DNA of 64,000 bases from an uncultured Candidatus Saccharibacteria bacterium (lineage in GTDB: Bacteria > Patescibacteriota > Minisyncoccia > Phycocordibacterales > UBA12445): the NCBI GenBank assembly GCA_964649715.1, contig CAZYTH010000005.1, positions 1,765 to 65,764 of the forward strand, given 5' to 3'. Each line of letters starts with the position of its first letter. Position 1 is the first letter of the stretch. The position numbers were made by a program, and so were the translations under genes. The notes beneath the pieces were generated by a model. That model was given only the letters and a program-made list of their open reading frames with translations, ran no database searches and was not told where the DNA came from. Shown in pieces: positions 2,523 through 56,969 of this stretch.

Positions 2523-2600
2523 ATGTTCGAGTCCCTACCTCTACCTATCGGTAAATAGGTAGAGGTAGACAGGCCTGCCTGTCTGGTAGGCAGGCTCTAC
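2523..2600. repeat. Composite palindromic (MITE-like) element: 14 bp perfect inverted repeat ctacctctacctat/ataggtagaggtag, then GC-rich palindrome gcctgcctg...caggcaggc
   Basis: Seen directly. A related shorter copy lies at 17651-17690. The GC-rich half recurs at 3530-3550, 12466-12502 and 50047-50061. Confidence 0.55.
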
Positions 2601-3658: not shown

Positions 3659-6600
3659 TTATTTATATTCTCTTAGCCAGAAATGTTCATCTTTTATTTT
3701 AATCAAAACTTTTGATGCCCCCTCTGGTCTTAAAAAAGAAAGTGATGAATTTGAACCACTCTGTTGTTTAACCAAAAAGAAACCAATTGCATCTCCTTTA
3801 GAAAAAAGCAAATCATTTATCTTTCCATCATTACGCATACTAAAAGATATTAAGGTATCTGATTTCTCCATGCCAGGGGTATATCTATGTATTTTTGGCA
3901 ATGATTCAAATGTGCCATCACCTTTATTTAAATAAATAATAAGATAACCACGATTACATAATAAGACAATGTCCTTTTTGCCATCATTATTATAATCAAT
4001 TGTAGCGGAACCCAAAATATCTAGAACTAAATCGTCTATATACCTCGTTCCATAATCTTTTCTTTCCTCAAATTCACCGTTGTTTTTTCCTAAGAAAATA
4101 CTAAAAACAGGAGATTGGTAGTCATAATAGACCCCGTTACTTAAACCAGCAGAATATGACGCTACAGCTAAATCAGAAATTCCATCATTGTTAAAATCGG
4201 CAATGATTGGTTTTCCTGGATAAGGTAGCGTGTAATATGTATTTTTCTTTTCTAATTCACCATCTTCATTTCCGAGCATTATTGCAATCGTACTTGTATT
4301 AAAATCAGAAGCAACAACATCACCAAATGTATCATTATTTATTTTGCCCGCTGTTAAGTATGCTTGTGCGACAGAATTGGTTGAGAATTGTTCGTCAAAA
4401 TTTGGATTTCCGTCATTTTTCAAACCGCCATTTTTCAAAACAGTAATTCCTGGAGTCCCCGCCACGATATCAATCTTTCCATCTCCATTTATATCAATAA
4501 TATCCAAATATTGGAAATAAGGAGAGTCTGTTCCAAAATAGATAGGCTGTTTAAATGTATTATCACCCTTGTTCATAACAACCGAAACATTTCTGTCATC
4601 ACCGACAGCAACTATATCAGCCTTTCCGTCACCGTCCAAATCCCCTATTTTTACTTTGCGTAGTCTCCATCCAACTGAAAATTCAGATACATTGTATTTA
4701 AAACCATCGATATTTTCAGTCCCATTTTGATTACTCAAAAAAACAGAAATTGAGGAAGCCTTCTTATTTGCTGTCACAAAATCAGGTATGCTGTCATTGT
4801 TGAAATCATAAATATCAATACCCCATGTTTCAACATCAGTACCATTGCTTCTAATTAATTGTTTAAGTTCTTTATAGTCTAAAGAGCTAGTCGTTTCGCT
4901 ATTTGCCTTAATCAAAGAGACACCATACATAACAACATTATTACCTTCTTTTTTTGTCATTCGAAGCGGAGATGTAAGGACACCCTTTGGATCAAAAGCT
5001 ATCTTTATTTCTTTATCATCATGCTTAACACGAAATCCGATATCAACAAAATCGACAAAAGGCAAACTACAATCTTTTGTTCCTGTCATTAGTTTTGTTT
5101 TTTCACAATTGCTCGTTTGGGTAAAAGTTTCTGTGGTGCATTTTGTTGCAGGATCAGGAGTCCATGTTGTATCAACACAATCCCCAACATTCACGGTCAC
5201 GCTCTTTGAATCACTTCCCCCGGGACCTTCACAAGACAGTGTGAAGGTTTTGCTTTCTCTTAAGCTTCCTGTGGACTGAGAAGAGTCAAGGGTTCCTAAT
5301 GTTCCAGGAGCTAAAGTACCCGACCAACCAGTACCACTTCTTGTACAAGATGTGGCGTTTTTGGCGGTGTATCTGATTGTTGTGGCTGTGTTGTAATCAA
5401 CAAAACCGTGACCAACCGTCAGAGTGACTTCTGGTGGTTTTATGCTTACAGTTTTTGAATCTTCTACTTTTGCACCATTTATTCCAATACATTCAACCTT
5501 GTATGTTTTTGAGGTGGTGAGGTTGCCAGTAGAGAAACTTGATAAACTTGTGTAGCTACTTGACCAATCCCCTGACCAATCCCCAAGTCTCCTACAAGAA
5601 ATAACGTTTGTTGTCGTGTATGTTAGTGTTGCTGGCGTATTATAATCAACGAGTTCTTTGTCGACTGTGAAGTTTAAAGTTGGTGAATCTAAAGGCAAAC
5701 TACAATCTTTTGTTCCACTAATACCTGTTCTAGTCGAACCACACTCTGTACCCGTTTGGGTGAAAGTTTCTGTAGTGCATCTTGTTGCAGGGTCAGGAGT
5801 CCATGTTGTATCAACACAAGCCCCGACATTCACGGTCACGCTCTTTGAATCACTTCCCCCGGGACCTTCACAAGACAGTGTGAAGGTTTTGCTTTCTCTT
5901 AAGCTTCCTGTGGACTGAGAAGAGTCAAGGGTTCCTAATGTTCCAGGAGCTAAAGTACCCGACCAACCAGTACCACTTCTTGTACAAGATGTGGCGTTTT
6001 TGGCGGTGTATCTGATTGTTGTGGCTGTGTTGTAATCAACAAAACCGTGACCAACCGTCAGAGTGACTTCTGGTGGTTTTATGCTTACAGTTTTTGAATC
6101 TTCTACTTTTGCACCATTTATTCCAATACATTCAACCTTGTATGTTTTTGAGGTAAAAAGATTACCAGTAGGGAAACCTGATGCACTTGTGTAACTACCT
6201 GACCAATCCCCAAGTCTCCTACAAGAAGTAACGTTTGTTGTCGTGTATGTTAATTTTGTTGATGTATTGTAATCGACTGAATCGTTCTCGACTATGAAAT
6301 TTAGAGTTGGGGCTCCTGGTTCTGCAACAGAAACAACTACCTCTTTTTCAACATCACTACCTCCTGGGCCAGAACAATTCAGTCTGTAGGTTTTGCTTTC
6401 TGTTAAGCTTCCTGTGTCCCAAGAAGAGCTAAGTGCCCCTGATGATGCATTAGGAGGTAACGAGCCACTCCAATCTCCGCTTTTTGTACAGGATGTTGCG
6501 TTTTTAGCTGTATATTTAAGATTGGTTTTTTCTCCATAATTAAGATTTTGTTTAGTAGCCTCTAATGTAACAACTGGAGGGTTTATACCTATTATTACGT

Positions 6601-12379: not shown

Positions 12380-13333
12380 TTGCCTGAACTTCCCGAAGTT
12401 ACAACAATAGTCTCCGGACTAAATAAAAGAGTAAAAGGTCTTATCATAAAAGACGTCTGGACTGACCTGCCTAAACGGCAGGCAGGTCTGCCTGCCGGCA
12501 GGAAAGTTGGGCTACGCAAGCAAGATCTTCTGACAATAAAAAATCCTGAATATTACAAAAATTTCAAAAAAGAAGTCGCAGGAAAAAAAATAATCGTTTG
12601 TGAAAGGATAGGAAAAAATATTTTAATGCACTTGTCCGGTAACACGACTATTCTCTTCCACATGAAAATGACAGGGCACTTGCTTTGCGGAAAATGGATT
12701 TCCGTCAAAGGTGAAAAAAATGCGTGGAAGCCAGAGAACAAAAACTCCCCTCTTTGTGATCCGTACAATAGATTTATTCATATAATTTTCTATCTAGATA
12801 ACGGCAAAATGCTCGCGCTTTCTGATATGAGAAAATTTGCTAAAGTGACATTGCTTAAAAAAGAAAATGAAAAAGAGTTTTCAGAAATAAAAAAAATTGG
12901 TCCTGACCCTTTAAAAATAAATTTAAAAAAATTTAGGGAACTTATAAGGAAAAAACCAACGGGAAAAATAAAACAGGTTTTAATGGATCAAGAATTAATT
13001 TCAGGCATAGGAAATATTTATTCAGACGAAATACTTTGGGCAACTGGAATACATCCGTTGGAGAAAATAAAAAAAATTACAGATGAAAAAATAAAAATGA
13101 TGTATGAAACAACTAAAAAAATTTTAACAGAATCAATAAATTATGGAGGAGATTCTATGTCTGATTTTAGAAACATTGACGGAGAAAAAGGAAATTACCA
13201 GAAACACCACAAGGCATACAGACAGACAGGAAAACCTTGTCCCAAAAGAGACGGGGGGAAAATTGTGAAAACAAAAGTTGGGGGAAGAAGCGCGCACTAT
13301 TGTAATGTGCACCAATCACTTCAGCATAAATAA
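12380..13333 (+). CDS. mutM: Formamidopyrimidine-DNA glycosylase (Fpg/MutM), TTG start, carrying an in-frame palindromic-repeat insertion
   Basis: N-terminal (M)PELPEVTTIV. C-terminal zinc finger CPKRDGGKIVKTKVGGRSAHYCNVHQ. H2TH region present. Residues ...DLPKRQAGLPAGRKVGLRK... are encoded by the GC-rich palindromic repeat at 12466-12502. Confidence 0.85.
   Translation: MPELPEVTTIVSGLNKRVKGLIIKDVWTDLPKRQAGLPAGRKVGLRKQDLLTIKNPEYYKNFKKEVAGKKIIVCERIGKNILMHLSGNTTILFHMKMTGHLLCGKWISVKGEKNAWKPENKNSPLCDPYNRFIHIIFYLDNGKMLALSDMRKFAKVTLLKKENEKEFSEIKKIGPDPLKINLKKFRELIRKKPTGKIKQVLMDQELISGIGNIYSDEILWATGIHPLEKIKKITDEKIKMMYETTKKILTESINYGGDSMSDFRNIDGEKGNYQKHHKAYRQTGKPCPKRDGGKIVKTKVGGRSAHYCNVHQSLQHK
12466..12502. 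repeat. GC-rich palindromic repeat (cctgcc-taaac-ggcagg, then cctgccggcagg) inserted in frame within fpg
   Basis: Seen directly. Member of the cctgcctgcc/ggcaggcagg family. Confidence 0.6.
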
Positions 13334-17650: not shown

Positions 17651-17690
17651 CTGCCTCTACCTATTGGTAGACAGGTTCCGGCAGGCAGGC
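17651..17690. repeat. Shorter copy of the composite palindromic element (ctgcctctacctattggtagacagg ... ggcaggcaggc)
   Basis: Aligns with 2535-2595. Preceded by a tRNA T-arm-like ggtttcgaact segment. Confidence 0.5.
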
Positions 17691-17727
17691 TAACGAAAGC
17701 TATGGGTAATGGCTTTCTCTGGGCAGA

Positions 17728-17752: not shown

Positions 17753-17755
17753 TTG

Positions 17756-17828
17756 TGCGCCCAGCAGGATTCGAACCTGCGACCATTTGCTTAAAAGGCA
17801 ACTGCTCTACCAACTGAGCTATGGGCGC
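17756..17828 (-). tRNA. tRNA-Lys (anticodon UUU)
   Basis: Reverse complement GCGCCCATAGCTCAGTTGGTAGAGCAGTTGCCTTTTAAGCAAATGGTCGCAGGTTCGAATCCTGCTGGGCGCA is near-identical in architecture to E. coli tRNA-Lys. Anticodon loop CTTTTAA. Confidence 0.85.
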
Positions 17829-17891
17829 ATTTAATAACTAATGTGTAAAAAACAATAACAAAATTATCGCTACCTGTCCAATGACAACACG

Positions 17892-17916
17892 ATGAGCGAG
17901 GTTGAACCTCACTCAT
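17892..17916. repeat. REP-like 25 bp imperfect palindrome atgagcgaggttgaacctcactcat overlapping the RAYT stop codon
   Basis: Seen directly. Related copies at 18395-18419 (reverse complement) and 18627-18651 (direct). Confidence 0.7.
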
Positions 17917-18622
17917 CATTTTGTTCCATAATTAAATCTATGTCTCCATCATTCTTATTGTCCCTAATCCAATCTTCCATTTCTTTTTTATACTTCGCTT
18001 CCCCGCCAAGATAACCACTCATCCATTCTCGCGATGTAACAGATGGAAAATTTTTTATTCCTATATAATCTAAATAGCTACTCCATCTATAGTGATTCAA
18101 TTGTTCTATTTTTTCGGATGGCAATCCCTTGGATTTCTTTATGGGGTTATTGTGTATATAAAAAGGCAACCAACCAAAATGAGCTTCTTTTTTTATGTGG
18201 ACCGCCTTAAATCTTCCCTGAAACAAACCCCCCACTCTCTCATATTTTTGATTAAAATACATAGTATATCCAGTCCCCAGTTTCTGCATAAATTTTACGA
18301 TTCCATTCTCTTGTCTTTGTTTCAAAACCAAATGAAAATGATTGGGCATCAATGTAAAAATAATAACATCAACCAACCTTTTTCTATTCTTCACAAATGA
18401 GTGAGGTTCAACCTCGCTCATTGATCTATTATGTTCAATGTCACGACCTAAATTCTGAACTGGGGAATTATTATTAAATTCATAAAGACAGTGAATAAAT
18501 CTAAGATGGTCCTGCTTATCTAAAAAGATGTTTCTTTTTTCTACACCCCTATTATAAATGTGATAGAATTCATCTTCTATAAATTCCGGTTTTTTCTTTG
18601 CCATAAACAAGAATACTATCAT
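17909..18622 (-). mobile_element. REP-associated tyrosine transposase (RAYT; IS200-like Y1 HUH transposase)
   Basis: EFYHIYNRGVEKRNIFLD N-terminal motif. HUH motif MPNHFHLVL. Catalytic Tyr region GYTMYFNQKYERVGGLFQGRFK. Bracketed by REP palindromes in the RAYT arrangement. Confidence 0.75.
18395..18419. repeat. REP-like palindrome copy inside the RAYT coding sequence (encodes MSEVEPHS in frame)
   Basis: Exact reverse complement of the 17892-17916 copy. Confidence 0.7.
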
Positions 18623-18626
18623 CCTT

Positions 18627-18651
18627 ATGAGCGAGGTTCAACCTCACTCAT
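18627..18651. repeat. REP-like palindrome copy 5 bp upstream of the RAYT start codon
   Basis: Differs from the 17892-17916 copy only at the central base. Confidence 0.7.
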
Positions 18652-18730
18652 AAAATAGGAAAAGAAAAAAGGCGTTCGGTTTAAAACCGAAACGCCCTGT
18701 GTAGGCTTTCGCCCGATGTGTGTGTGAAGA

Positions 18731-19198
18731 CTACTTCTTCTTCTTGCCGCCCTTACCCTTGTTCTTCTTGTTCTTGCCCCCATCGGAGGAGCCGCCCTTC
18801 CCTTTCTTCTGCTTCGGGGGCTTCACCTTGGGATGCCAAGTGCCGTTGGCCTTCCCCGCTTCGATGCCGGCCCAACGAGCCGGCTTGGCCTTGGACTTTT
18901 TCTTCGACCCAACGCGGGAACGATTCAGGATTGACGGTCGATACTCCTCCTGAATCAAACCCTTGATGTAGGCCGAGTGGATTCGACGAACCTGAAAAGC
19001 CTCCCTTTCCTCGGCGTCGAAAATCGCGCCGTTCTGGACTTCGATGATGTTGCCGAGCGTGAAGTCCTTGTTGACGGTCTGAACCTTCCAGTCTCCTTCA
19101 TTGTCGGGAAGATTGGAGAGATTCTCGAGAATAATCCCGAGACCCTCAAACACCGAGAGGAAAAACTTGATTACCTCACCGACACGGAAGTTCACCAT
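18731..19198 (-). CDS. Hypothetical protein (155 aa) with GC3-rich codon usage and a Lys/Gly-rich C-terminal tail (KKKSKAKPA...KGKGGKKKK)
   Basis: Coherent ORF in a GC-rich segment. Consensus sigma70 promoter and AAAAGGAGGG ribosome-binding site upstream. Basic tail suggests nucleic-acid binding. No family recognised. Confidence 0.55.
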   Translation of the reverse strand: MVNFRVGEVIKFFLSVFEGLGIILENLSNLPDNEGDWKVQTVNKDFTLGNIIEVQNGAIFDAEEREAFQVRRIHSAYIKGLIQEEYRPSILNRSRVGSKKKSKAKPARWAGIEAGKANGTWHPKVKPPKQKKGKGGSSDGGKNKKNKGKGGKKKK

Positions 19199-19245
19199 AA
19201 AAATAGCCCTCCTTTTAAAATTTTGATGTTCTTAATTCTCTTTTA

Positions 19246-19274
19246 ATTATATACCTTTATTATGAATCTGTCAA
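19246..19274 (-). promoter_or_regulatory. Consensus sigma70 promoter TTGACA-17-TATAAT for the 155 aa gene
   Basis: Minus strand reads ggtggtgTTGACAgattcataataaaggtaTATAATtaaaag, about 45 nt upstream of ribosome-binding site AAAAGGAGGG and the ATG at 19198. Confidence 0.6.
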
Positions 19275-19435
19275 CACCACCAAATAAAATTGTCTAAAAT
19301 ACAGATAATCAACGACTATCATCCCTTTTGTCATTCCCGACTTGATCGGGAATCCAGAAATTGTCTTTGAAACTGGATCCCCGTTTTCACGGGGATGACA
19401 ACTAAAACCGAGTCGCACTAAGAAAAAACATGCAA

Positions 19436-19492
19436 CCCTGATTGGATAAAAATATATTCATCTAAAATGAATATATTTTTATCCAATCAGGG
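19436..19492 (-). terminator. 26 bp perfect inverted repeat with 5 nt loop, followed on the minus strand by ttgcatgtttttt
   Basis: ccctgattggataaaaatatattcat-ctaaa-atgaatatatttttatccaatcaggg. Unusually long stem. Could also be a protein-binding palindrome. Confidence 0.5.
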
Positions 19493-19502
19493 TAAAGAAA
19501 AA

Positions 19503-19529
19503 GGCGCTGAAGCTTGAGAGCTTAGCGCC
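19503..19529 (-). terminator. Rho-independent terminator (ggcgctaagctc-tcaa-gcttcagcgcc plus TTTTTCTTT) after the 292 aa gene
   Basis: Hairpin plus T-run on the minus strand, 50 nt after the stop at 19581. A smaller hairpin ggagatg-gac-atctcc (19540-19560) precedes it. Confidence 0.55.
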
Positions 19530-19580
19530 TGAAATGGACATTTTGTTGATGGAGATGTCCATCTCCGATTCTGCACTAGG

Positions 19581-20459
19581 TTACTTCTTGTTGGTCGGGC
19601 GGAGTTTGGATAGAAGGTTGGCAACCACCGGAACCTTCTCGATCTGTGCCCTGAATCCCTCATCCATCCACTTGAAGTGAGCGAACAGGAATCCGCCGTT
19701 ACCGTTCTGATTCTTGCGCCGTTCCAAGATCGGAACATCGCGCTCGAGACCGAGCTCCACCTTGCCTTCAACGAGCTGAAGAGTCCGGACCTTGGCCCAG
19801 ATCTCCCCATCGAAGCCTGACTTGGTGGAGATTACCGCACAGGGGCCCGCCGACCCGTGGATGTGGAGTTCTCCCCGAATGACACGAGGCCAGTCGAAGA
19901 TTTCCTTTCCGTCGGCGAGTTTCTTCTTCTTGGTGAAGCCACGGGAACCCCATTGCCAGCGAGCCTCGGAGATGGGCAGGGTGATCAGGATCTCGGAGAT
20001 CCGCTTGGCCAACTTCAGCTTAAGCTGGTCAGCGACGGCCTTGGGCAGGATCCGGAATTCGCTACGGGAAAGACTGACCGGAACGCCCTCGGAGGTCTCG
20101 GCCTCCATCTGACCATCGGCCTTGACCGAGATCAAGACCAGGTGACCGCACTTGACCGCAGCACCGACATAGCCGGACCGCGGATCGATGGGGGGCAGCT
20201 CCTTCAGAGTGCCGTCTTCCATCTTCTTCTGGCGGCGGATGTTGGCCATGCCGTAGAGACCGTTGAGCTCGAACTGCTCGATCGGGCGAAGGGAGGTCTT
20301 CTGGACCGCCTCCATGACCTGGTCGGTGCCGGCGATCTGAAGATCGACGAGATCTTCGGTTTCCTTGAGGATGAACATGGGCTTGGCGGATGGATCGTCC
20401 TTGAAGGCGACCCATTCCAACACGAACCGTGGTCTGCTGTTCTGATTCTTGTTCTCCAT
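19581..20459 (-). CDS. Hypothetical protein (292 aa) with GC3-rich codon usage
   Basis: Long ORF with protein-like composition. Opposite-strand ORFs are Asp/Gly/Leu-rich antisense artefacts. Ribosome-binding site AAAGGAGGG lies 8 nt before the ATG. No family recognised. Confidence 0.55.
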   Translation of the reverse strand: MENKNQNSRPRFVLEWVAFKDDPSAKPMFILKETEDLVDLQIAGTDQVMEAVQKTSLRPIEQFELNGLYGMANIRRQKKMEDGTLKELPPIDPRSGYVGAAVKCGHLVLISVKADGQMEAETSEGVPVSLSRSEFRILPKAVADQLKLKLAKRISEILITLPISEARWQWGSRGFTKKKKLADGKEIFDWPRVIRGELHIHGSAGPCAVISTKSGFDGEIWAKVRTLQLVEGKVELGLERDVPILERRKNQNGNGGFLFAHFKWMDEGFRAQIEKVPVVANLLSKLRPTNKK

Positions 20460-20763
20460 AACAATTGCCCTCCTTTGGGCTTCGAAATTCAGAATGTACC
20501 CTTTCGCTAAACTACCTCTTCCTCCAAAGAAGATTTGATTAAGCGAAGGACACGCGCACGGCCGGGTGAAATTCCACGGCCAATTTTTAGAACAGTTTCC
20601 CTTCCTCCTTTTTCATTTAACATAGAATTGACATCGCTTTCCTTGTGACGGAATTTCTCCCGCCCAAGATGGCAGTGCCGAGTCCGGATGTTGTTGTTGA
20701 CTTAATCCACCTCCTTCTTTTTGAAATAACCTTTATTGCAATGAACAAACTTGATTTTGGTTT

Positions 20764-20792
20764 ATAATACACAAAACTATATTTTTGTCAAG
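20764..20792 (-). promoter_or_regulatory. Near-consensus sigma70 promoter TTGACA-17-TATTAT that would give a ~300 nt GC-rich 5' leader for the 292 aa gene
   Basis: Minus strand reads gtcTTGACAaaaatatagttttgtgTATTATaaacc. Confidence 0.45.
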
Positions 20793-20840
20793 ACAAATTT
20801 GCGATAATCTAAAATAACGGCTTAAAATAAAAATTTTTAG

Positions 20841-20918
20841 GAAACCGGGTTAATTAAGGTTATAAATATAGAATTCTTTAGCCAAAAAAATTAGCAGTGG
20901 TAATTCATTAACCCGGTT
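20841..20918. repeat. 14 bp perfect inverted repeat gaaaccgggttaat ... attaacccggtttc separated by about 50 bp, abutting the holA stop
   Basis: Seen directly at 20841-20854 and 20905-20918. Confidence 0.5.
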
Positions 20919-20928
20919 TCTTCTTGTT

Positions 20929-21666
20929 TTACAGATTTAGGATAAAACCCTCAAGGGCGTTATCAAATTCAGCCACCCCTCTTCTTGAGTCGTGATACAA
21001 AGATACAAGGTCACCATATAATTTTTTTAATTCTTCTTCACTAAAATTTTTGGAGTATTTTTTGGCCTTCATCAAAACAAAAGGGGCTATCTTTAGTTTT
21101 TCCACCGCCCTATCGCCTTTGTCTTCAGCAATCTTTGCCAAAAGCATATTTTTCACCTGCCAAACAAACTTCCAAAAAACTTCCTCGGGAGCGATGTCTT
21201 CTCTAATGGCTTTCTGATACAAAACCCATATTTTCTTTTTATCTTTTTCTCCGAAAGCGTCTGATATAGAAAAAATATTAAAACCCCTATCTTCCTTTTC
21301 TAGCCCGATTGGCAAATCAAAAGTAAAAATTTTCTCCGCACCCTTGGCTAGTTTAATGAAATCACCCTTTTTTATATTATCTTCAACAAAAATAAAAATG
21401 TTCGGAGAAGATCTAATCTCGTCTAATCTATCCAAAACAACTTCCTTCGCTTCATCATTTTTAAAAATATCCTCACAAATAATGAGAAATTTATCGGAAA
21501 AAAGACTTTGGCTACCTAAATGACCCAAAAAAGAACCTTTATCAAAAACATCCTCTGTGAATCTAAAAATATTTGAGTGAGGATTTTTCTTAAAAAAAGA
21601 TTCAACCGTCGTCTTTAATTTGGCGTGACTTTTTATTGTATCTTTGCCGTGAAATAAATACAGCAT
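20929..21666 (-). CDS. holA: DNA polymerase III delta subunit (HolA)
   Basis: MLYLFHGKDTIKSHAKL N-terminus and 245 aa size. Sits upstream of polA in a replication gene context. Moderate similarity pattern to HolA. Confidence 0.6.
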   Translation of the reverse strand: MLYLFHGKDTIKSHAKLKTTVESFFKKNPHSNIFRFTEDVFDKGSFLGHLGSQSLFSDKFLIICEDIFKNDEAKEVVLDRLDEIRSSPNIFIFVEDNIKKGDFIKLAKGAEKIFTFDLPIGLEKEDRGFNIFSISDAFGEKDKKKIWVLYQKAIREDIAPEEVFWKFVWQVKNMLLAKIAEDKGDRAVEKLKIAPFVLMKAKKYSKNFSEEELKKLYGDLVSLYHDSRRGVAEFDNALEGFILNL

Positions 21667-21745: not shown

Positions 21746-24181
21746 TTAGCTTTCAACTTCTTTTAAATCTCCCCAGTTGTCCCCTACCGAAGCATCCACA
21801 AGTAACGGTAAATTAATTGAAACAGCATTTTCCATTGCGTGCTTTATCAAAGCAACGTTGTTGTTCAAGTGCTCGTCATCCTTAACCTCAAAAAGGAGCT
21901 CATCATGGACCTGAAGCAATAAGTGAACGCTGTCTTTTAACTTTTTCTCCTCAAGTTTTTTGTCCACATGAGAGATGGCGAGCTTGATTATATCACCCGT
22001 CGCACTCCCCTGAATAGGTGCATTCATAGCCATTCTCTCCGCCTCGCTTCTGATATATGGCAAGTGCGAATTAATCTCGGGAAAATATCTTCGCCTCCCA
22101 AAGTAGGTGGTTGTATAACCCCGACTTCTTGCCTCCGATTTAATTCTTTCAAAATATTCACGAACTCTTGGAAATTTATTGAAATATTCGTTGTAAAATT
22201 TCTCAGCCTCCTCTGTGGTGGTTCCAAGATTTTTCTTTAATGCCCTAACACCCATCCCGTATATAATACCAAAATTTATAACTTTGGCCTGCCTCCTCAT
22301 TTCTTTTGTGACGTCGCCCTCCGCAACACCAAATACTTTCGAAGCCACGCTTGCATGAATGTCTTTTCCATCCCTGAACGTCTGAATAAGCACCTCGTCC
22401 TCAGTGAGCCAGGCAAGAACCCTCATCTCTATTTGAGAATAGTCAAAAGCGCATATTTTATAACCTTTGGACGAGATAAATGCACGTCTCACCTCAGAAC
22501 CAAACTCTCCTCTCGCCGGAATGTTTTGCAAATTCGGATCGGTTGAAGACATTCTTCCTGTGGTTGTTCCCGTCTGATTTAAATGTGTATGAAGACGGCC
22601 ATTCTCGTCGACTTTTTCGGGGAGATTGTCTACATAAGTTGAAAGCAATTTTTGAAGGCCCCTATATTCAAGGATATCGGCAATTATCGGATGAACATCT
22701 TTTAGTTTTTCAAGCTCTGACTCTCTCGTCGATATCGAACCGCCTGCCGTTTTTTTTATTCCCTTTTTTGACAAAGCCATCTTTACAAAAAGTATTTCCC
22801 CTAACTGTTTTGGTGAATTTATGTTAAATTCCACACCTGCGTGCTTCCATATCTTAGCTTCGTAATCTGAAAGTCTCTTGTGATAGTCAACCGAAATATC
22901 TTTCAAATATTTTGTATCAAGAAGTATCCCTCTGTTTTCCGCATCTTCAATTATTTTTATTAAAGGTAACTCTATTTCATCATAAACCCTCCCAAGTCCA
23001 TCCTCTTTCATCCTTTCCAACAGTTTCTTTTCAACAACGTCAAAATCCTTACTGTCGGCAAATACATAGAGGTCTTCTGTCTTCGGATCGGTCTTGCTTG
23101 AGTCTATGAGCCAAAGAGCAATAAAGGCTTTTTTGAGACGAATGGGGTTTATTTCTATTTCATTTATATCTGAATTCACAGTTTCTGTGTTAGAACTCTC
23201 ACTTGGACTCCCGGAGTCCAAGTGATCAAACTTGCCAAGAAGCTCGTCCAAACGGCCAGGCAAAGTGCGGAACTCAAGATCAGTAAATATCTGTTTTGCA
23301 CTAGATACAACGAGAGACTCTTTCCATGTTTTTTGGGGTATTTCAAAATCTAAAGGCACGTCTCTTTTTATGGTCGCAAGTTTTTTTGAAAAAAATGCTT
23401 CTTCTTCACCATTTTTTAAGAGTTCTATCATTCGGGTCTTTATTCCAGCCTGCTCAAATTTTTTCTCACCATCTTTTTTGTTCAGAATCTCATAAATATT
23501 TTCAATAGTTCCAAAACTTTTTATAAGATTCTCAGCAGTTTTTTCTCCTATTCCCTTTATGCCGATAATATTATCCGACGGATCACCACGAAGACCCTTG
23601 AAATCACTCATGTATTTCGGAGAAAAACCGTACCTCTCCTCTATTCCCTTTTCGTCGTAAATAATTGTATCTTTTATTCCTTTATGAAGTGTATAGACAA
23701 CAACTTCATCATCTTCAATAAGTTGAGTGGTATCCAAGTCTCCGGAAGCGATAACAATCTGCACCTTACCACCATCAACCTTCATGTCTTTTACGTTCTC
23801 AGCAATCGTACCAATAAGATCGTCTGCCTCAAAACCCTCTTTCTCGTAATAAGGAATATTAAAAGCTTTAAATACTTCTCTTGATCTAATTATTTGCTCT
23901 ATAAGTGCGTCATCGGTCTTTTTTCTTCCAGCTTTATATCCATCGTACATTTCTTTTCTAAATGTAGGCTTGGGAAGATCGTAACAAGCTATAATATAAT
24001 CCGGTTTAAGATCACCGATAATCTTTATAATCATTAAAGACAACCCATAAAGCGCACCAGTGGGTTCACCTTTTGAAGTCGTAAAATCAGGAAGAGCGTG
24101 GTATGCACGATGAAGTATGGCATGAACATCCAACAACACCAGACGTTTCTTGTATTGTTTTTTAATTACCTTATGTTCCAT
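21746..24181 (-). CDS. polA: DNA polymerase I
   Basis: N-terminal 5'-3' exonuclease motifs (LLDVHAILHRAYHAL, GIKGIGEKTA). Polymerase motifs RRQAKVINFGIIYGMG and LLQVHDELLFEV. Confidence 0.9.
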   Translation of the reverse strand: MEHKVIKKQYKKRLVLLDVHAILHRAYHALPDFTTSKGEPTGALYGLSLMIIKIIGDLKPDYIIACYDLPKPTFRKEMYDGYKAGRKKTDDALIEQIIRSREVFKAFNIPYYEKEGFEADDLIGTIAENVKDMKVDGGKVQIVIASGDLDTTQLIEDDEVVVYTLHKGIKDTIIYDEKGIEERYGFSPKYMSDFKGLRGDPSDNIIGIKGIGEKTAENLIKSFGTIENIYEILNKKDGEKKFEQAGIKTRMIELLKNGEEEAFFSKKLATIKRDVPLDFEIPQKTWKESLVVSSAKQIFTDLEFRTLPGRLDELLGKFDHLDSGSPSESSNTETVNSDINEIEINPIRLKKAFIALWLIDSSKTDPKTEDLYVFADSKDFDVVEKKLLERMKEDGLGRVYDEIELPLIKIIEDAENRGILLDTKYLKDISVDYHKRLSDYEAKIWKHAGVEFNINSPKQLGEILFVKMALSKKGIKKTAGGSISTRESELEKLKDVHPIIADILEYRGLQKLLSTYVDNLPEKVDENGRLHTHLNQTGTTTGRMSSTDPNLQNIPARGEFGSEVRRAFISSKGYKICAFDYSQIEMRVLAWLTEDEVLIQTFRDGKDIHASVASKVFGVAEGDVTKEMRRQAKVINFGIIYGMGVRALKKNLGTTTEEAEKFYNEYFNKFPRVREYFERIKSEARSRGYTTTYFGRRRYFPEINSHLPYIRSEAERMAMNAPIQGSATGDIIKLAISHVDKKLEEKKLKDSVHLLLQVHDELLFEVKDDEHLNNNVALIKHAMENAVSINLPLLVDASVGDNWGDLKEVES

Positions 24182-24699: not shown

Positions 24700-24887
24700 T
24701 AAAATTAATACTATCATTTTTTAAACAAATTCAAAGCAGAAAATAATTGTGAAATTTTTAAACAAAAGTGATAAAATAGTAACTGTCAAGACTTTACATT
24801 ATTTTTTGTTTTTGTCCTGTTAGTAAAAAATTTGTTAATTAAGATAAAATGAGTAGGATGTAATTAAGAGTAAGAAAAAAAATAAAA

Positions 24888-56792: not shown

Positions 56793-56969
56793 AATTGGGA
56801 ACAGTTAGAAACATCCCCAATTTATTATACCACCTTCTCTGAATGAATAGTATAGTCTTTTTTTAAAAAACTGTGGATAAGTCTGTAATTGAAGATAGAC
56901 GGTTTAAATTTAAACTTGGACTCCGGGTTTCCAAGTATTTTGCTTGGAAACCCGGAGTCCAAGTACCCG

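What the first reader, a model, noticed from the sequence alone, without database searches (positions are those of the whole stretch)
19199..19580. Hairpin-dense spacer with a 26 bp perfect palindrome and a 70 nt cloverleaf-like double hairpin
The roughly 380 bp between the two GC-rich genes holds five or more strong hairpins. There are two terminators. A 70 nt element (minus strand) reads gtcatccccgtgaaaacggggatccag ... ctggattcccgatcaagtcgggaatgac. It is itself an imperfect palindrome and can form a three-way structure: outer stem gtcat/atgac, two GC hairpins, and a central stem ggatccag/ctggatcc. Then comes the consensus promoter. The two GC hairpins resemble CRISPR-repeat-like stems but differ from each other. 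The arrangement suggests a structured RNA, a processing or regulatory element, or a recombination site rather than plain spacer.
Basis: seen in the sequence. Interest (0 to 1): 0.55.

Follow-up and report, generated by a model that had tools for sequence, protein, structure and literature searches.

The report
Known REP-type palindrome pair in spacer
The "cloverleaf-like double hairpin" is an inverted pair of a short DNA palindrome already known from many bacteria (Neisseria dRS3/NTS, the "CGTC-tagged REP" family), sitting as a dispensable passenger between two terminators and a strong promoter, so it is not a new structured RNA.

Summary
The 382-bp spacer folds far better than shuffles (z = -8.9). 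On the minus strand it holds a lineage-specific hairpin, a classic GC-rich terminator, a perfect palindrome with 27-bp arms followed by a T-run, a 75-nt double hairpin, and a 12/12 consensus promoter.

The double hairpin is not a new RNA. Each half reads TGTC, an 8-bp stem starting AT, a 4- or 5-nt loop, then CCAG. That is the published anatomy of CGTC/TGTC-tagged REPs (Neisseria dRS3/NTS, "Ssn-related motif"), arranged as the usual inverted dimer.

Its stem covaries perfectly: 133 T-A, 25 C-G and no mismatches in 158 units.

In homologous loci the dimer is either decayed or deleted. The terminator/palindrome block and the promoter are retained.

The window holds only this one pair and no Ssn-type GIY-YIG gene. 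The neighbouring RAYT-like gene has different hairpins of its own.

Verdict: a new member of a known kind, of low interest. The side observations are odder: an intergenic block 92% conserved next to coding sequences 51-68% identical, and two orphan genes with GC3 near 0.75 in a genome near 0.32.

The parts
19531..19565 (-). Hairpin H1 just after the stop codon (11-bp stem, 13-nt loop). It is lineage-specific.
   Evidence: Inverted repeat I8. RNA fold -13.4 kcal/mol, z -3.1. Absent from L001/L002 in alignment A1.
19493..19530 (-). Intrinsic terminator T1: GC-rich stem 19502-19530 (AGGCGCU...AGCGCCU) plus U-tract 19493-19501.
   Evidence: RNA fold -17.4 kcal/mol, z -6.0. The GGCGC/GCGCC stem and the TTTTTCTTT tract are conserved in L001, L002, L005 and L010.
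19420..19493 (-). Perfect palindrome with 27-bp arms (19435-19461 and 19467-19493) followed by TGCATGTTTTTTCTT. Read as a second, AT-rich terminator or insulator hairpin. The right arm and T-run are invariant in relatives; the left arm is variable.
   Evidence: I1, 100% complementary. (-39 kcal/mol, z -12.2); relatives have an imperfect version (-25.7 kcal/mol) with the same right arm.
19403..19434 (-). Conserved linker (TGCATGTTTTTTCTTAGTGCGACTCGGTTTTAGT). It is part of the ~115-nt block that is 92% identical to relatives. Function unknown.
19373..19400 (-). REP unit A: TGTC tag, 8-bp stem ATCCCCGT/ACGGGGAT, loop GAAA, tail CCAG (CGTC-1 type; matches the published SRM pattern).
   Evidence: DNA hairpin -8.6 kcal/mol.
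19358..19372 (.). AT-rich spacer between the two units.
19329..19357 (+). REP unit B in inverted orientation: TGTC tag, 8-bp stem ATTCCCGA/TCGGGAAT, loop CTTGA, tail CCAG (CGTC-2-like). 28-32 nt are identical to sequences in unrelated MAGs.
   Evidence: 100% over 32 nt to L108 and over 31 nt to L015. DNA hairpin -7.6 kcal/mol.
19318..19325 (+). ATCATCCC, a probable relic of a further half-unit. It is shared with L002 and absent from L001.
19246..19274 (-). Consensus sigma-70-type promoter TTGACA-17-TATAAT for the 155-aa gene.
   Evidence: 12 of 12. Both hexamers are conserved in L001 and L002.
19196..19214 (-). Shine-Dalgarno AAGGAGG (19208-19214) and ATG (19196-19198) of the 155-aa gene.
   Evidence: Read directly from the sequence. 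Conserved in L001/L002.

Best explanation
The spacer is made of ordinary parts plus one passenger.

Transcription of the 292-aa gene ends at two tandem hairpin-plus-T-run terminators. The 155-aa gene restarts from its own consensus promoter.

Between them, in a gap that is probably not transcribed, sits one inverted dimer of a TGTC-tagged REP. This is the same repeat family as Neisseria dRS3/NTS, the CGTC-REPs of Di Nocera 2013 and the Ssn-related motifs of Chenal 2025.

Such units act as hairpins in single-stranded DNA. In species that encode the small GIY-YIG nuclease Ssn, they are bound and cut as ssDNA.

Here the dimer appears to be a solitary, dispensable copy. It was present in the common ancestor of this locus family, is intact in this genome, and has decayed or been deleted in sister lineages. 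It has no demonstrable role in expressing the flanking genes.

Shown: the anatomy, family membership by sequence and structure, cross-phylum distribution, stem covariation, and the presence/absence polymorphism. Inferred: the lack of transcription, the ssDNA-level mode of action, and loss by slippage across the palindrome.
For: - Both units meet the published CGTC-REP definition: tag TGTC, 8-bp stem starting AT, loop of 4 or 5 nt, tail CCA (PMC3733652). They are the only such structures in 64 kb, against 0.0 expected from shuffles.
- Unit A matches the published SRM search pattern. It is the only hit in the window, against 0.12 in shuffles (pattern from PMC11893778).
The hits span Proteobacteria (including Neisseria), Chloroflexi, Planctomycetes, Nitrospirae, several CPR groups and a Nanoarchaeota MAG. 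It also hit the limit in viral contigs.
- 45 dimers with tags outward and tails inward were found among the fetched loci and the window. The window's loop combination recurs in a Thermodesulfobacteriota MAG, L046.
- A 74%-PolA relative carries another such dimer at an unrelated locus, between ruvC and yebC.
- Stem position 3 covaries perfectly: T-A 133, C-G 25, mismatches 0 of 158. Position 8 is C-G 140, T-A 9, A-T 7.
- Among homologous spacers, L002/L003 carry the dimer at the same site. There it has mutated tags, one stem G-T and a 22-nt insert in a loop. L001, L004, L005, L006 and L010 lack it, with TGT microhomology at the junction. Terminators, palindrome right arm and promoter are kept in all of them.
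- GIY-YIG genes lie next to units in L038, L130 and L023, which reproduces the published Ssn association.
Against: - The family is defined as a multi-copy repeat, but only one dimer occurs in this 64-kb window.
- No Ssn-like GIY-YIG gene is in the window. The best E-value was 1.3, using an HMM that detects a Parcubacterial GIY-YIG at 4e-17. A cognate enzyme in this organism is therefore unproven.
- Unit B fails the strict SRM pattern, and unit A differs from the Neisseria NTS consensus at 5 of 28 positions.
- The units in this genome are pristine: perfect stems, tags and tails. That could mean recent activity or selection rather than passive carriage.
- Lack of transcription is inferred from terminator anatomy only.
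Confidence: 0.8

Rival explanations
1. The double hairpin is a structured RNA. It could be a small RNA, a processing site, or a 3'-UTR stabiliser of the upstream mRNA (the classical REP role), made by read-through of the terminators.
For: As RNA it folds strongly (-34.2 kcal/mol, z -5.8). REPs lying between genes of the same orientation are often proposed to act as RNA (PMC3733652). In L002 one stem change is C to T, which would keep a G-U pair.
Against: It lies after two terminators and before the next promoter. No Rfam match was found. It is deleted in five homologous contigs whose upstream protein is the same or about 99% identical. Across the family, none of 158 units shows a G-T at stem position 3 although the search pattern allowed it. 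Published SsnA acts on ssDNA and not on RNA (PMC11893778).
Confidence: 0.08
2. It is a REPIN, a non-autonomous element mobilised by the RAYT-like Y1 (HUH) transposase encoded about 700 bp away at 17909-18622.
For: The architecture is REPIN-like: two inverted REPs with a short spacer. A Y1_Tnp/RAYT-like gene is nearby (Pfam 3.4e-07; NCBIfam REP_Tyr_transpos 36.7 bits, below its cut-off of 80).
Against: That gene is bracketed by a different hairpin, ATGAGYGAGGTTSAACCTCRCTCAT, and also contains one copy. The three copies are at 18627-18649, 18397-18421 and 17892-17914. The tag is TGTC, not GT[AG]G. CGTC REPs are reported to lack a dedicated transposase (PMC3733652). None of the 120 genome loci carrying the motif has a homologue of this protein. 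L002 has the dimer but a SurA-like gene, not the RAYT, downstream.
Confidence: 0.04
3. The hairpin region is a functional DNA site for recombination or integration. This would parallel dRS3 serving as the attachment site of Neisseria filamentous phages, or NTS-gene-NTS cassettes. It would promote exchange of the flanking orphan genes.
For: L001 and L002 share a 937-nt tract with no differences over the 293-aa gene. The tract ends inside the left arm of the quasi-palindrome, while the flanks are 4-14% diverged. The two genes form a variable islet between holA and tRNA-Lys that is missing from relatives L374 and L373. dRS3 is a known recombinase target and NTS modulates transformation (PMC11893778).
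Against: Only one junction was observed. It lies in the palindrome, not in the REP dimer. No integrase, IS110-type recombinase or Ssn gene was identified near the site. The synteny break with L001/L002 is downstream of the 155-aa gene, not at the spacer.
Confidence: 0.08

Closest known systems
Neisseria dRS3 / NTS (Neisseria Transformation Sequence) and Ssn-related motifs (Chenal et al. 2025, PMC11893778)
   Same: Same core, ATYCCCG...CGGGRAT. Same oriented flanks: (C/T)GTC tag on the 5' side and a CCAG-type tail (NTS: CYRG) on the 3' side. Hairpin-forming, mostly intergenic, often in inverted pairs. Unit A matches the published SRM pattern.
   Different: Five mismatches to the strict NTS consensus (tag T for C, C-G instead of T-A at stem pair 3, T-A instead of C-G at pair 8). 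Unit B has a 5-nt loop and fails the SRM pattern. There is one dimer rather than hundreds of copies. No ssnA-like gene is found in 64 kb. The host is a Parcubacteria-type CPR bacterium.
CGTC-tagged REP families CGTC-1 and CGTC-2 (Di Nocera et al. 2013, PMC3733652)
   Same: TGTC variant of the tag, 8-bp stems beginning AT, loops of 4 and 5 nt, CCA tail, inverted heterodimer, and a position between genes of the same orientation.
   Different: The spacer between units (15 nt) is at the short end of the reported 20-100 bp. Copy number here is minimal. CPR phyla were not among the five phyla reported in that paper.
REPINs and their RAYTs (Bertels and Rainey 2011, PMC3116915)
   Same: Two inverted REPs that can fold into one long hairpin, with a Y1 transposase gene in the neighbourhood.
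   Different: The tag is not GTAG, and the neighbouring RAYT-like gene has its own unrelated hairpins.
Tandem intrinsic terminators followed by a consensus sigma-70 promoter
   Same: A GC-rich stem plus U-tract, a second long hairpin plus U-tract, and TTGACA-17-TATAAT.
   Different: The second hairpin is unusually long (27-28 bp), AT-rich and perfectly palindromic only in this lineage. The block around it is more conserved than the neighbouring genes.

Membership tests
CGTC-tagged REP (Di Nocera 2013) | Unpaired 5' tag CGTC (variants TGTC, CCTC) | tested here: met
   Both units start with TGTC. In 158 family units the base before GTC is C in 103 and T in 47.
CGTC-tagged REP (Di Nocera 2013) | 8-9 bp stem whose first two pairs are A-T and T-A; loop of 4 nt (family 1) or 5 nt (families 2-4) | tested here: met
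   Unit A: ATCCCCGT/ACGGGGAT with loop GAAA. Unit B: ATTCCCGA/TCGGGAAT with loop CTTGA.
CGTC-tagged REP (Di Nocera 2013) | Short unpaired 3' tail fitting CCA | tested here: met
   Both units end in CCAG.
CGTC-tagged REP (Di Nocera 2013) | Predominantly organised as inverted dimers | tested here: met
   Tags face outward and tails inward, with a 15-nt spacer. 45 dimers of the same arrangement were found among the fetched loci and the window.
CGTC-tagged REP (Di Nocera 2013) | Repeated many times in the same genome | tested here: inconclusive
   There is only one dimer in the 64-kb window. The rest of the genome is not available. Relative L374 has one dimer elsewhere in 18 kb, and L373 has none.
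NTS / Ssn-related motif (Chenal 2025) | Match to HGTCWYN(0-2)YYVSBRHN(0-5)WNVSBRGN(0-2)RNCYNB | tested here: met
   Unit A matches and is the single hit in the window, against a shuffle mean of 0.12. Unit B does not match.
NTS / Ssn-related motif (Chenal 2025) | Match to the strict NTS CGTCATTCCCGCGMAVGCGGGAATCYRG with at most 1 mismatch | tested here: not met
   Unit A has 5 mismatches. Unit B is not alignable without a gap.
NTS / Ssn-related motif (Chenal 2025) | A cognate small GIY-YIG (cd10448) ssn gene in the genome, often flanked by the motif | tested here: inconclusive
   None in the window (best E-value 1.3). It detects the 85-aa GIY-YIG of relative L373 at 3.7e-17. The rest of the genome is unavailable. 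GIY-YIG ORFs are adjacent to units in L038, L130 and L023.
NTS / Ssn-related motif (Chenal 2025) | Bound and cleaved as ssDNA by Ssn | not testable with these tools
   This needs a biochemical assay.
REPIN-RAYT system | GT[AG]G tetranucleotide at the hairpin foot, and a RAYT gene flanked by the same REP | tested here: not met
   The tag is TGTC. The RAYT-like gene is flanked by ATGAGYGAGGTTSAACCTCRCTCAT.
CRISPR repeat | Array of direct repeats separated by unique spacers | tested here: not met
   There are two units, inverted relative to each other. CRISPR-DR35 scores 15 bits against a gathering score of 35.
tRNA / tmRNA-like cloverleaf or any Rfam family | Covariance-model or ARAGORN match | tested here: not met
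   No tRNA or tmRNA in the spacer. No Rfam hit at gathering score.
Intrinsic (Rho-independent) terminator | Stable stem-loop followed directly by a U-tract, downstream of a stop codon on the coding strand | tested here: met
   T1 is -17.4 kcal/mol followed by UUUUUCUUU, and T2 is -39 kcal/mol with U6 after 6 nt. Both are conserved in relatives. Function was not tested experimentally.

The most novel reading that the evidence does not exclude
The spacer may be more than terminators plus a passenger repeat.

A block of about 115 nt is kept at 92% identity between lineages whose flanking coding sequences are only 51-68% identical. The block runs from the 3' half of T1, through the palindrome's right arm and T-run, to the 28 nt leading up to the REP tag.

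A 937-nt tract of zero divergence ends inside the palindrome. The two flanking orphan genes have GC3 of 0.74-0.78 in a genome of about 0.32.

Together these would fit a sequence-specific DNA or RNA element, with the NTS-type dimer beside it, that drives frequent exchange or gene conversion of this two-gene islet among Parcubacteria. GC-biased conversion could then explain the composition anomaly.
Probability: 0.08. Interest if true: 0.55.

Novelty: new member of a known kind. Interest (0 to 1): 0.22.

Why it matters
Mostly this is a correction: a striking "cloverleaf" turns out to be a copy of one of the most widespread bacterial palindromic repeats. Similar findings in other windows can be recognised from the signature (C/T)GTC-AT(Y)CCCG...CGGG(R)AT-CCAG.

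The scans here also modestly extend the known range of the CGTC-REP/NTS family. It occurs in several CPR groups, many other phyla and viral contigs, usually as a tag-outward dimer with perfect stem covariation. That is relevant to the open question of what spreads and maintains these units (Ssn nucleases or something else).

The side observations may deserve their own look. They are the ultra-conserved intergenic block, the GC3-rich orphan gene pair and the recombination junction in the palindrome.

Tried and rejected
- **Rfam.** An E-value scan of 19000-19800, a gathering scan of the whole window and an E-value scan of the upstream leader 20380-20960 gave only generic long-hairpin miRNA models and tRNAs elsewhere.
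- **tRNA-like cloverleaf.** ARAGORN finds nothing in the spacer.
- **CRISPR-like repeat.** Rejected: the two units are inverted, there is no array, and the CM score is sub-threshold.
- **More copies in the window.** An exact pattern, up to 4 mismatches and a purely structural definition all return only the two units.
- **More homologous spacers.** The 155-aa protein has a single homologue, whose contig starts 52 nt upstream of the gene. A metagenome scan with the conserved 17-mer TTTTATCCAATCAGGGT returned 120 loci that proved to be chance matches. A viral scan with a longer conserved pattern returned nothing.
- **RAYT link.** Rejected.
- **Ssn gene in the window.** Not found.
- **Identity of the flanking genes.** No hits in Pfam, NCBIfam or PHROGs. 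Only 5 family members exist among 5.8 billion proteins. A profile search of 1.84 billion representatives gave one weak hit (P0012) and one low-complexity false positive. The AlphaFold model has pLDDT 40 and is unusable, so no fold search was run.
- **Small ORF in the conserved block.** An 18-19 codon ORF has no Shine-Dalgarno sequence and is frame-shifted in L002. It was rejected by reading the sequence.

Full report
**1. What is there**

The finding's coordinates are exactly the spacer between two minus-strand genes. Upstream is a 292-aa ORF (19581-20459). Downstream is a 155-aa ORF with a Lys/Gly-rich tail (18731-19198).

Read on the minus strand, the spacer contains, in order:
- H1, an 11-bp hairpin (19531-19565).
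- T1, a GC-rich stem (19502-19530, -17.4 kcal/mol, z -6.0) followed directly by UUUUUCUUU.
- T2, a perfect palindrome with 27-bp arms (19435-19461 and 19467-19493, -39 kcal/mol, z -12.2), followed by TGCATGTTTTTTCTT.
- A 32-nt linker.
- The 75-nt double hairpin (19328-19402).
- A 12/12 TTGACA-17-TATAAT promoter (19274-19246).
- AAGGAGG and the ATG.

The whole spacer folds at -132 kcal/mol against -82.7 +/- 5.5 for shuffles (z -8.9). The palindrome arms are 27 bp, not 26. The three-way "cloverleaf" is the minimum-energy form only with DNA parameters (-20.2 kcal/mol); as RNA the element prefers one long imperfect hairpin (-34.2 kcal/mol).

**2. What the double hairpin is**

Its two halves are inverted copies of one unit type:
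- Unit A (minus strand): TGTC-ATCCCCGT-GAAA-ACGGGGAT-CCAG.
- Unit B (plus strand): TGTC-ATTCCCGA-CTTGA-TCGGGAAT-CCAG.

[quoted passage not shown] CGTC-1 in Neisseria is the dRS3 repeat (PMC3733652).

In 2025 the oriented 28-nt version was named NTS (CGTCATTCCCGCGMAVGCGGGAATCYRG). It was shown to be bound and cut, only as single-stranded DNA, by the small GIY-YIG nuclease SsnA. A degenerate "Ssn-related motif" (SRM) pattern was defined for distant relatives (PMC11893778).

Unit A matches that SRM pattern. It is the only match in the window, against a shuffle mean of 0.12. Unit B has the same tag, stem and tail, but its 5-nt loop fails the pattern. Unit A has 5 mismatches to the strict Neisseria NTS.

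A purely structural scan (tag, 8-9-bp AT-initiated stem, CC tail) finds exactly these two units in 64 kb, where shuffles give 0.0.

**3. Distribution**

Hits came from Neisseria lactamica and N. dentiae, many other Proteobacteria, Dehalococcoidia, Planctomycetes, Nitrospirae, Zixibacteria, a Nanoarchaeota MAG and several CPR groups (Doudna-, Pacei-, Parcu-, Sacchari-, Uhr-, Magasanik- and Peribacteria). It hit the limit again in IMG/VR viral contigs.

Among 158 units from the genome loci, stem pair 3 is T-A 133 times, C-G 25 times and never mismatched, although the search pattern allowed all four combinations. Pair 8 is C-G 140, T-A 9, A-T 7, with 2 exceptions. The hairpin is therefore maintained by compensatory change, with no G-T wobble at pair 3. 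That pattern favours a DNA-level constraint.

I found 45 dimers with tags outward and tails inward among the fetched loci and the window: 24 homodimers and 21 heterodimers. The window's loop combination (TGAAAA with ACYTGAT) recurs in a Thermodesulfobacteriota MAG, L046.

Thirty-two nucleotides around unit B are 100% identical to a deltaproteobacterial MAG (L108), and 31 nt to a Sulfuricurvum MAG (L015). No other part of the spacer matches anything outside its own locus family.

GIY-YIG ORFs lie next to units in L038 and L130, and about 0.5 kb from the unit in L023. This reproduces the published association.

**4. Homologous loci**

The 292-aa protein has only four relatives (62-65% identity) among 5.8 billion proteins. 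Their contigs are syntenic upstream, where holA also precedes the gene.

The spacer alignment shows the following:
- The T1 stem and U-tract, the outer stem, right arm and T-run of T2, the linker and the promoter are retained in all of them.
- The dimer is present at the same site only in L002/L003.
- There it is degraded. The unit A tag reads TATC and one stem pair is G-T. Unit B is separated from its tag by a 21-22-nt segment. Its loop carries a 22-nt insert resembling another small palindrome family of these genomes. The outer stem GTCAT/ATGAC does not exist.
- L001, L004, L005, L006 and L010 lack the dimer altogether, with TGT microhomology at the junction. Yet L001 encodes exactly the same 293-aa protein as L002.

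Since the window (the outgroup) and L002 share the insertion site and a downstream relic (GGGATGNTAGTCG), the simplest history is ancestral presence followed by decay and deletion. This part is inference.

So does the position of the element, which is after two terminators and before the next promoter. No Rfam family and no tRNA-like gene is found.

**5. Partner enzymes**

The window has no Ssn-like GIY-YIG ORF. That HMM scores the 85-aa GIY-YIG of a 75%-PolA relative (L373) at 3.7e-17. The rest of the genome is not available, so this feature is inconclusive.

The adjacent RAYT-like Y1 transposase gene (17909-18622; Pfam Y1_Tnp 3.4e-07) is not the partner, for three reasons:
- It is bracketed by, and even contains, three copies of a different hairpin, ATGAGYGAGGTTSAACCTCRCTCAT.
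- No homologue of it occurs in the 120 motif-bearing genome loci.
- L002 has the dimer without this gene nearby.

**6. Mechanism, committed**

- With about 0.8 confidence, the spacer is two tandem terminators, a solitary and dispensable TGTC-REP (dRS3/NTS/SRM-type) inverted dimer lying in the probably untranscribed gap, and a strong promoter.
- Units of this family work as ssDNA hairpins. Whether this organism has an enzyme that uses them is unknown.
- Rivals: an RNA element (0.08), a RAYT-mobilised REPIN (0.04), and a functional recombination site (0.08).

**7. Context and oddities (outside the finding)**

- By PolA, the organism is a Parcubacteria/Paceibacteria-type CPR bacterium.
- The two genes form an islet between holA and tRNA-Lys that is absent from relatives L374 and L373.
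- Their GC3 is 0.775 and 0.744, against about 0.32 for neighbouring genes. The orthologues are also elevated: 0.49 and 0.41 in L001, and 0.63 for the 297-aa homologue in L009.
- A spacer block of about 115 nt is 92% identical between the window and L001/L002. The coding sequences are 64% (292-aa gene), 51% (155-aa gene) and 68% (holA) identical.
- L001 and L002 share a 937-nt tract with zero differences that ends inside the left arm of the quasi-palindrome. The flanks are 4-14% diverged.
- In relatives the palindrome's left arm is variable and imperfect while the right arm is invariant. The perfect 27-bp palindrome in the window therefore looks like lineage-specific "correction" of a quasi-palindrome (inference).

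These points are unexplained. They form the basis of the low-probability novel reading.

**8. Verdict**

This is a new member of a known kind. The interest of the finding as stated is low (0.22).

Noticed in passing
window 18731-19198 and 19581-20459 (minus strand): The two flanking orphan genes have GC3 of 0.744 and 0.775 (GC 54-58%) in a genome where holA, polA and the RAYT-like gene have GC3 of 0.32-0.36. Orthologues are also elevated over their neighbours (L001 0.49 and 0.41 against 0.22-0.29; the 297-aa homologue in L009 0.63). The AT-rich spacer between them stays conserved. The protein family has only 5 members among 5.8 billion proteins and no Pfam, NCBIfam or PHROG match.
   Followed up: partly
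window 19390-19516 (minus strand); L001 2182-2314: An intergenic block of about 115 aligned nt is 92% identical to relatives whose coding sequences are only 51-68% identical. It covers the 3' half of T1, its U-tract, the palindrome's outer stem and right arm, the T-run and a 28-nt linker. Its function is unknown.
   Followed up: partly
L001 1274-2210 versus L002 518-1454: A 937-nt tract with zero differences covers the 293-aa gene and ends inside the left arm of the quasi-palindrome. The flanks are 4-14% diverged. This looks like a recent recombination tract with a junction in the hairpin region (a single case).
   Followed up: partly
window 17892-17914, 18397-18421, 18627-18649: The RAYT-like Y1 transposase gene (17909-18622) is bracketed by two copies of the hairpin ATGAGYGAGGTTSAACCTCRCTCAT. 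A third, inverted copy lies inside its own coding sequence (peptide MSEVEPHS). The arrangement is REPtron-like. The gene is kept at the same place in the near-identical relative L132 (155-aa protein 96% identical).
   Followed up: partly
window 17755-20928; L374 10404-11500; L373 10560-13200: The two GC-rich genes plus the RAYT-like gene form an islet between holA and tRNA-Lys. In relative L374, holA is followed directly by the tRNA and then SpoU methylase. L373 has different small ORFs there.
   Followed up: partly
window 2535-2595, 12464-12497, 17680-17722; L001 3832-3874; L002 1608-1629: There is another family of small palindromes (GCCTGCCTG... / CTACCTCTACC...). The copy at 17680-17722 is 95% identical to a non-syntenic site in L001. 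A related 22-nt piece sits inside the loop of REP unit B in L002.
   Followed up: no
L374 1184-1268: A relative with 74% PolA identity carries another TGTC-tagged inverted dimer, between ruvC and yebC: TGTCATCCCGGACTCGATCCGGGATCCAG, 30 nt, then an inverted partner. Its stem sequence differs, so such dimers occur at several loci in this lineage.
   Followed up: partly
L373 6481-6738; window 24718-24887: A relative with 75% PolA identity has an 85-aa GIY-YIG gene inserted between pilB and tsaE, where the window has only 170 nt. No SRM units flank it.
   Followed up: partly
window 5225-5248 and 5864-5887; 23199-23225 and 56914-56964: Two further repeated hairpins occur in the window: ACCTTCACAAGACAGTGTGAAGGT (two copies) and ACTTGGACTCC...GGAGTCCAAGT (two sites, one inside polA).
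   Followed up: no
L132 (GCA_028691575.1, JAQUYY010000195.1): A 4-kb contig that is nearly identical to the window (155-aa protein 96% identical, same gene order) is labelled Candidatus Gastranaerophilales. PolA places the window's organism in the Parcubacteria group, so that label is probably a binning error.
   Followed up: partly
window 20460-20928: A long leader (about 470 nt) lies between holA and the 292-aa gene. It has a good promoter-like site (TTGACA...TATTATAA, near 20790) and a GC-richer 3' half. It is 68% identical to L001 and has no Rfam match.
   Followed up: partly
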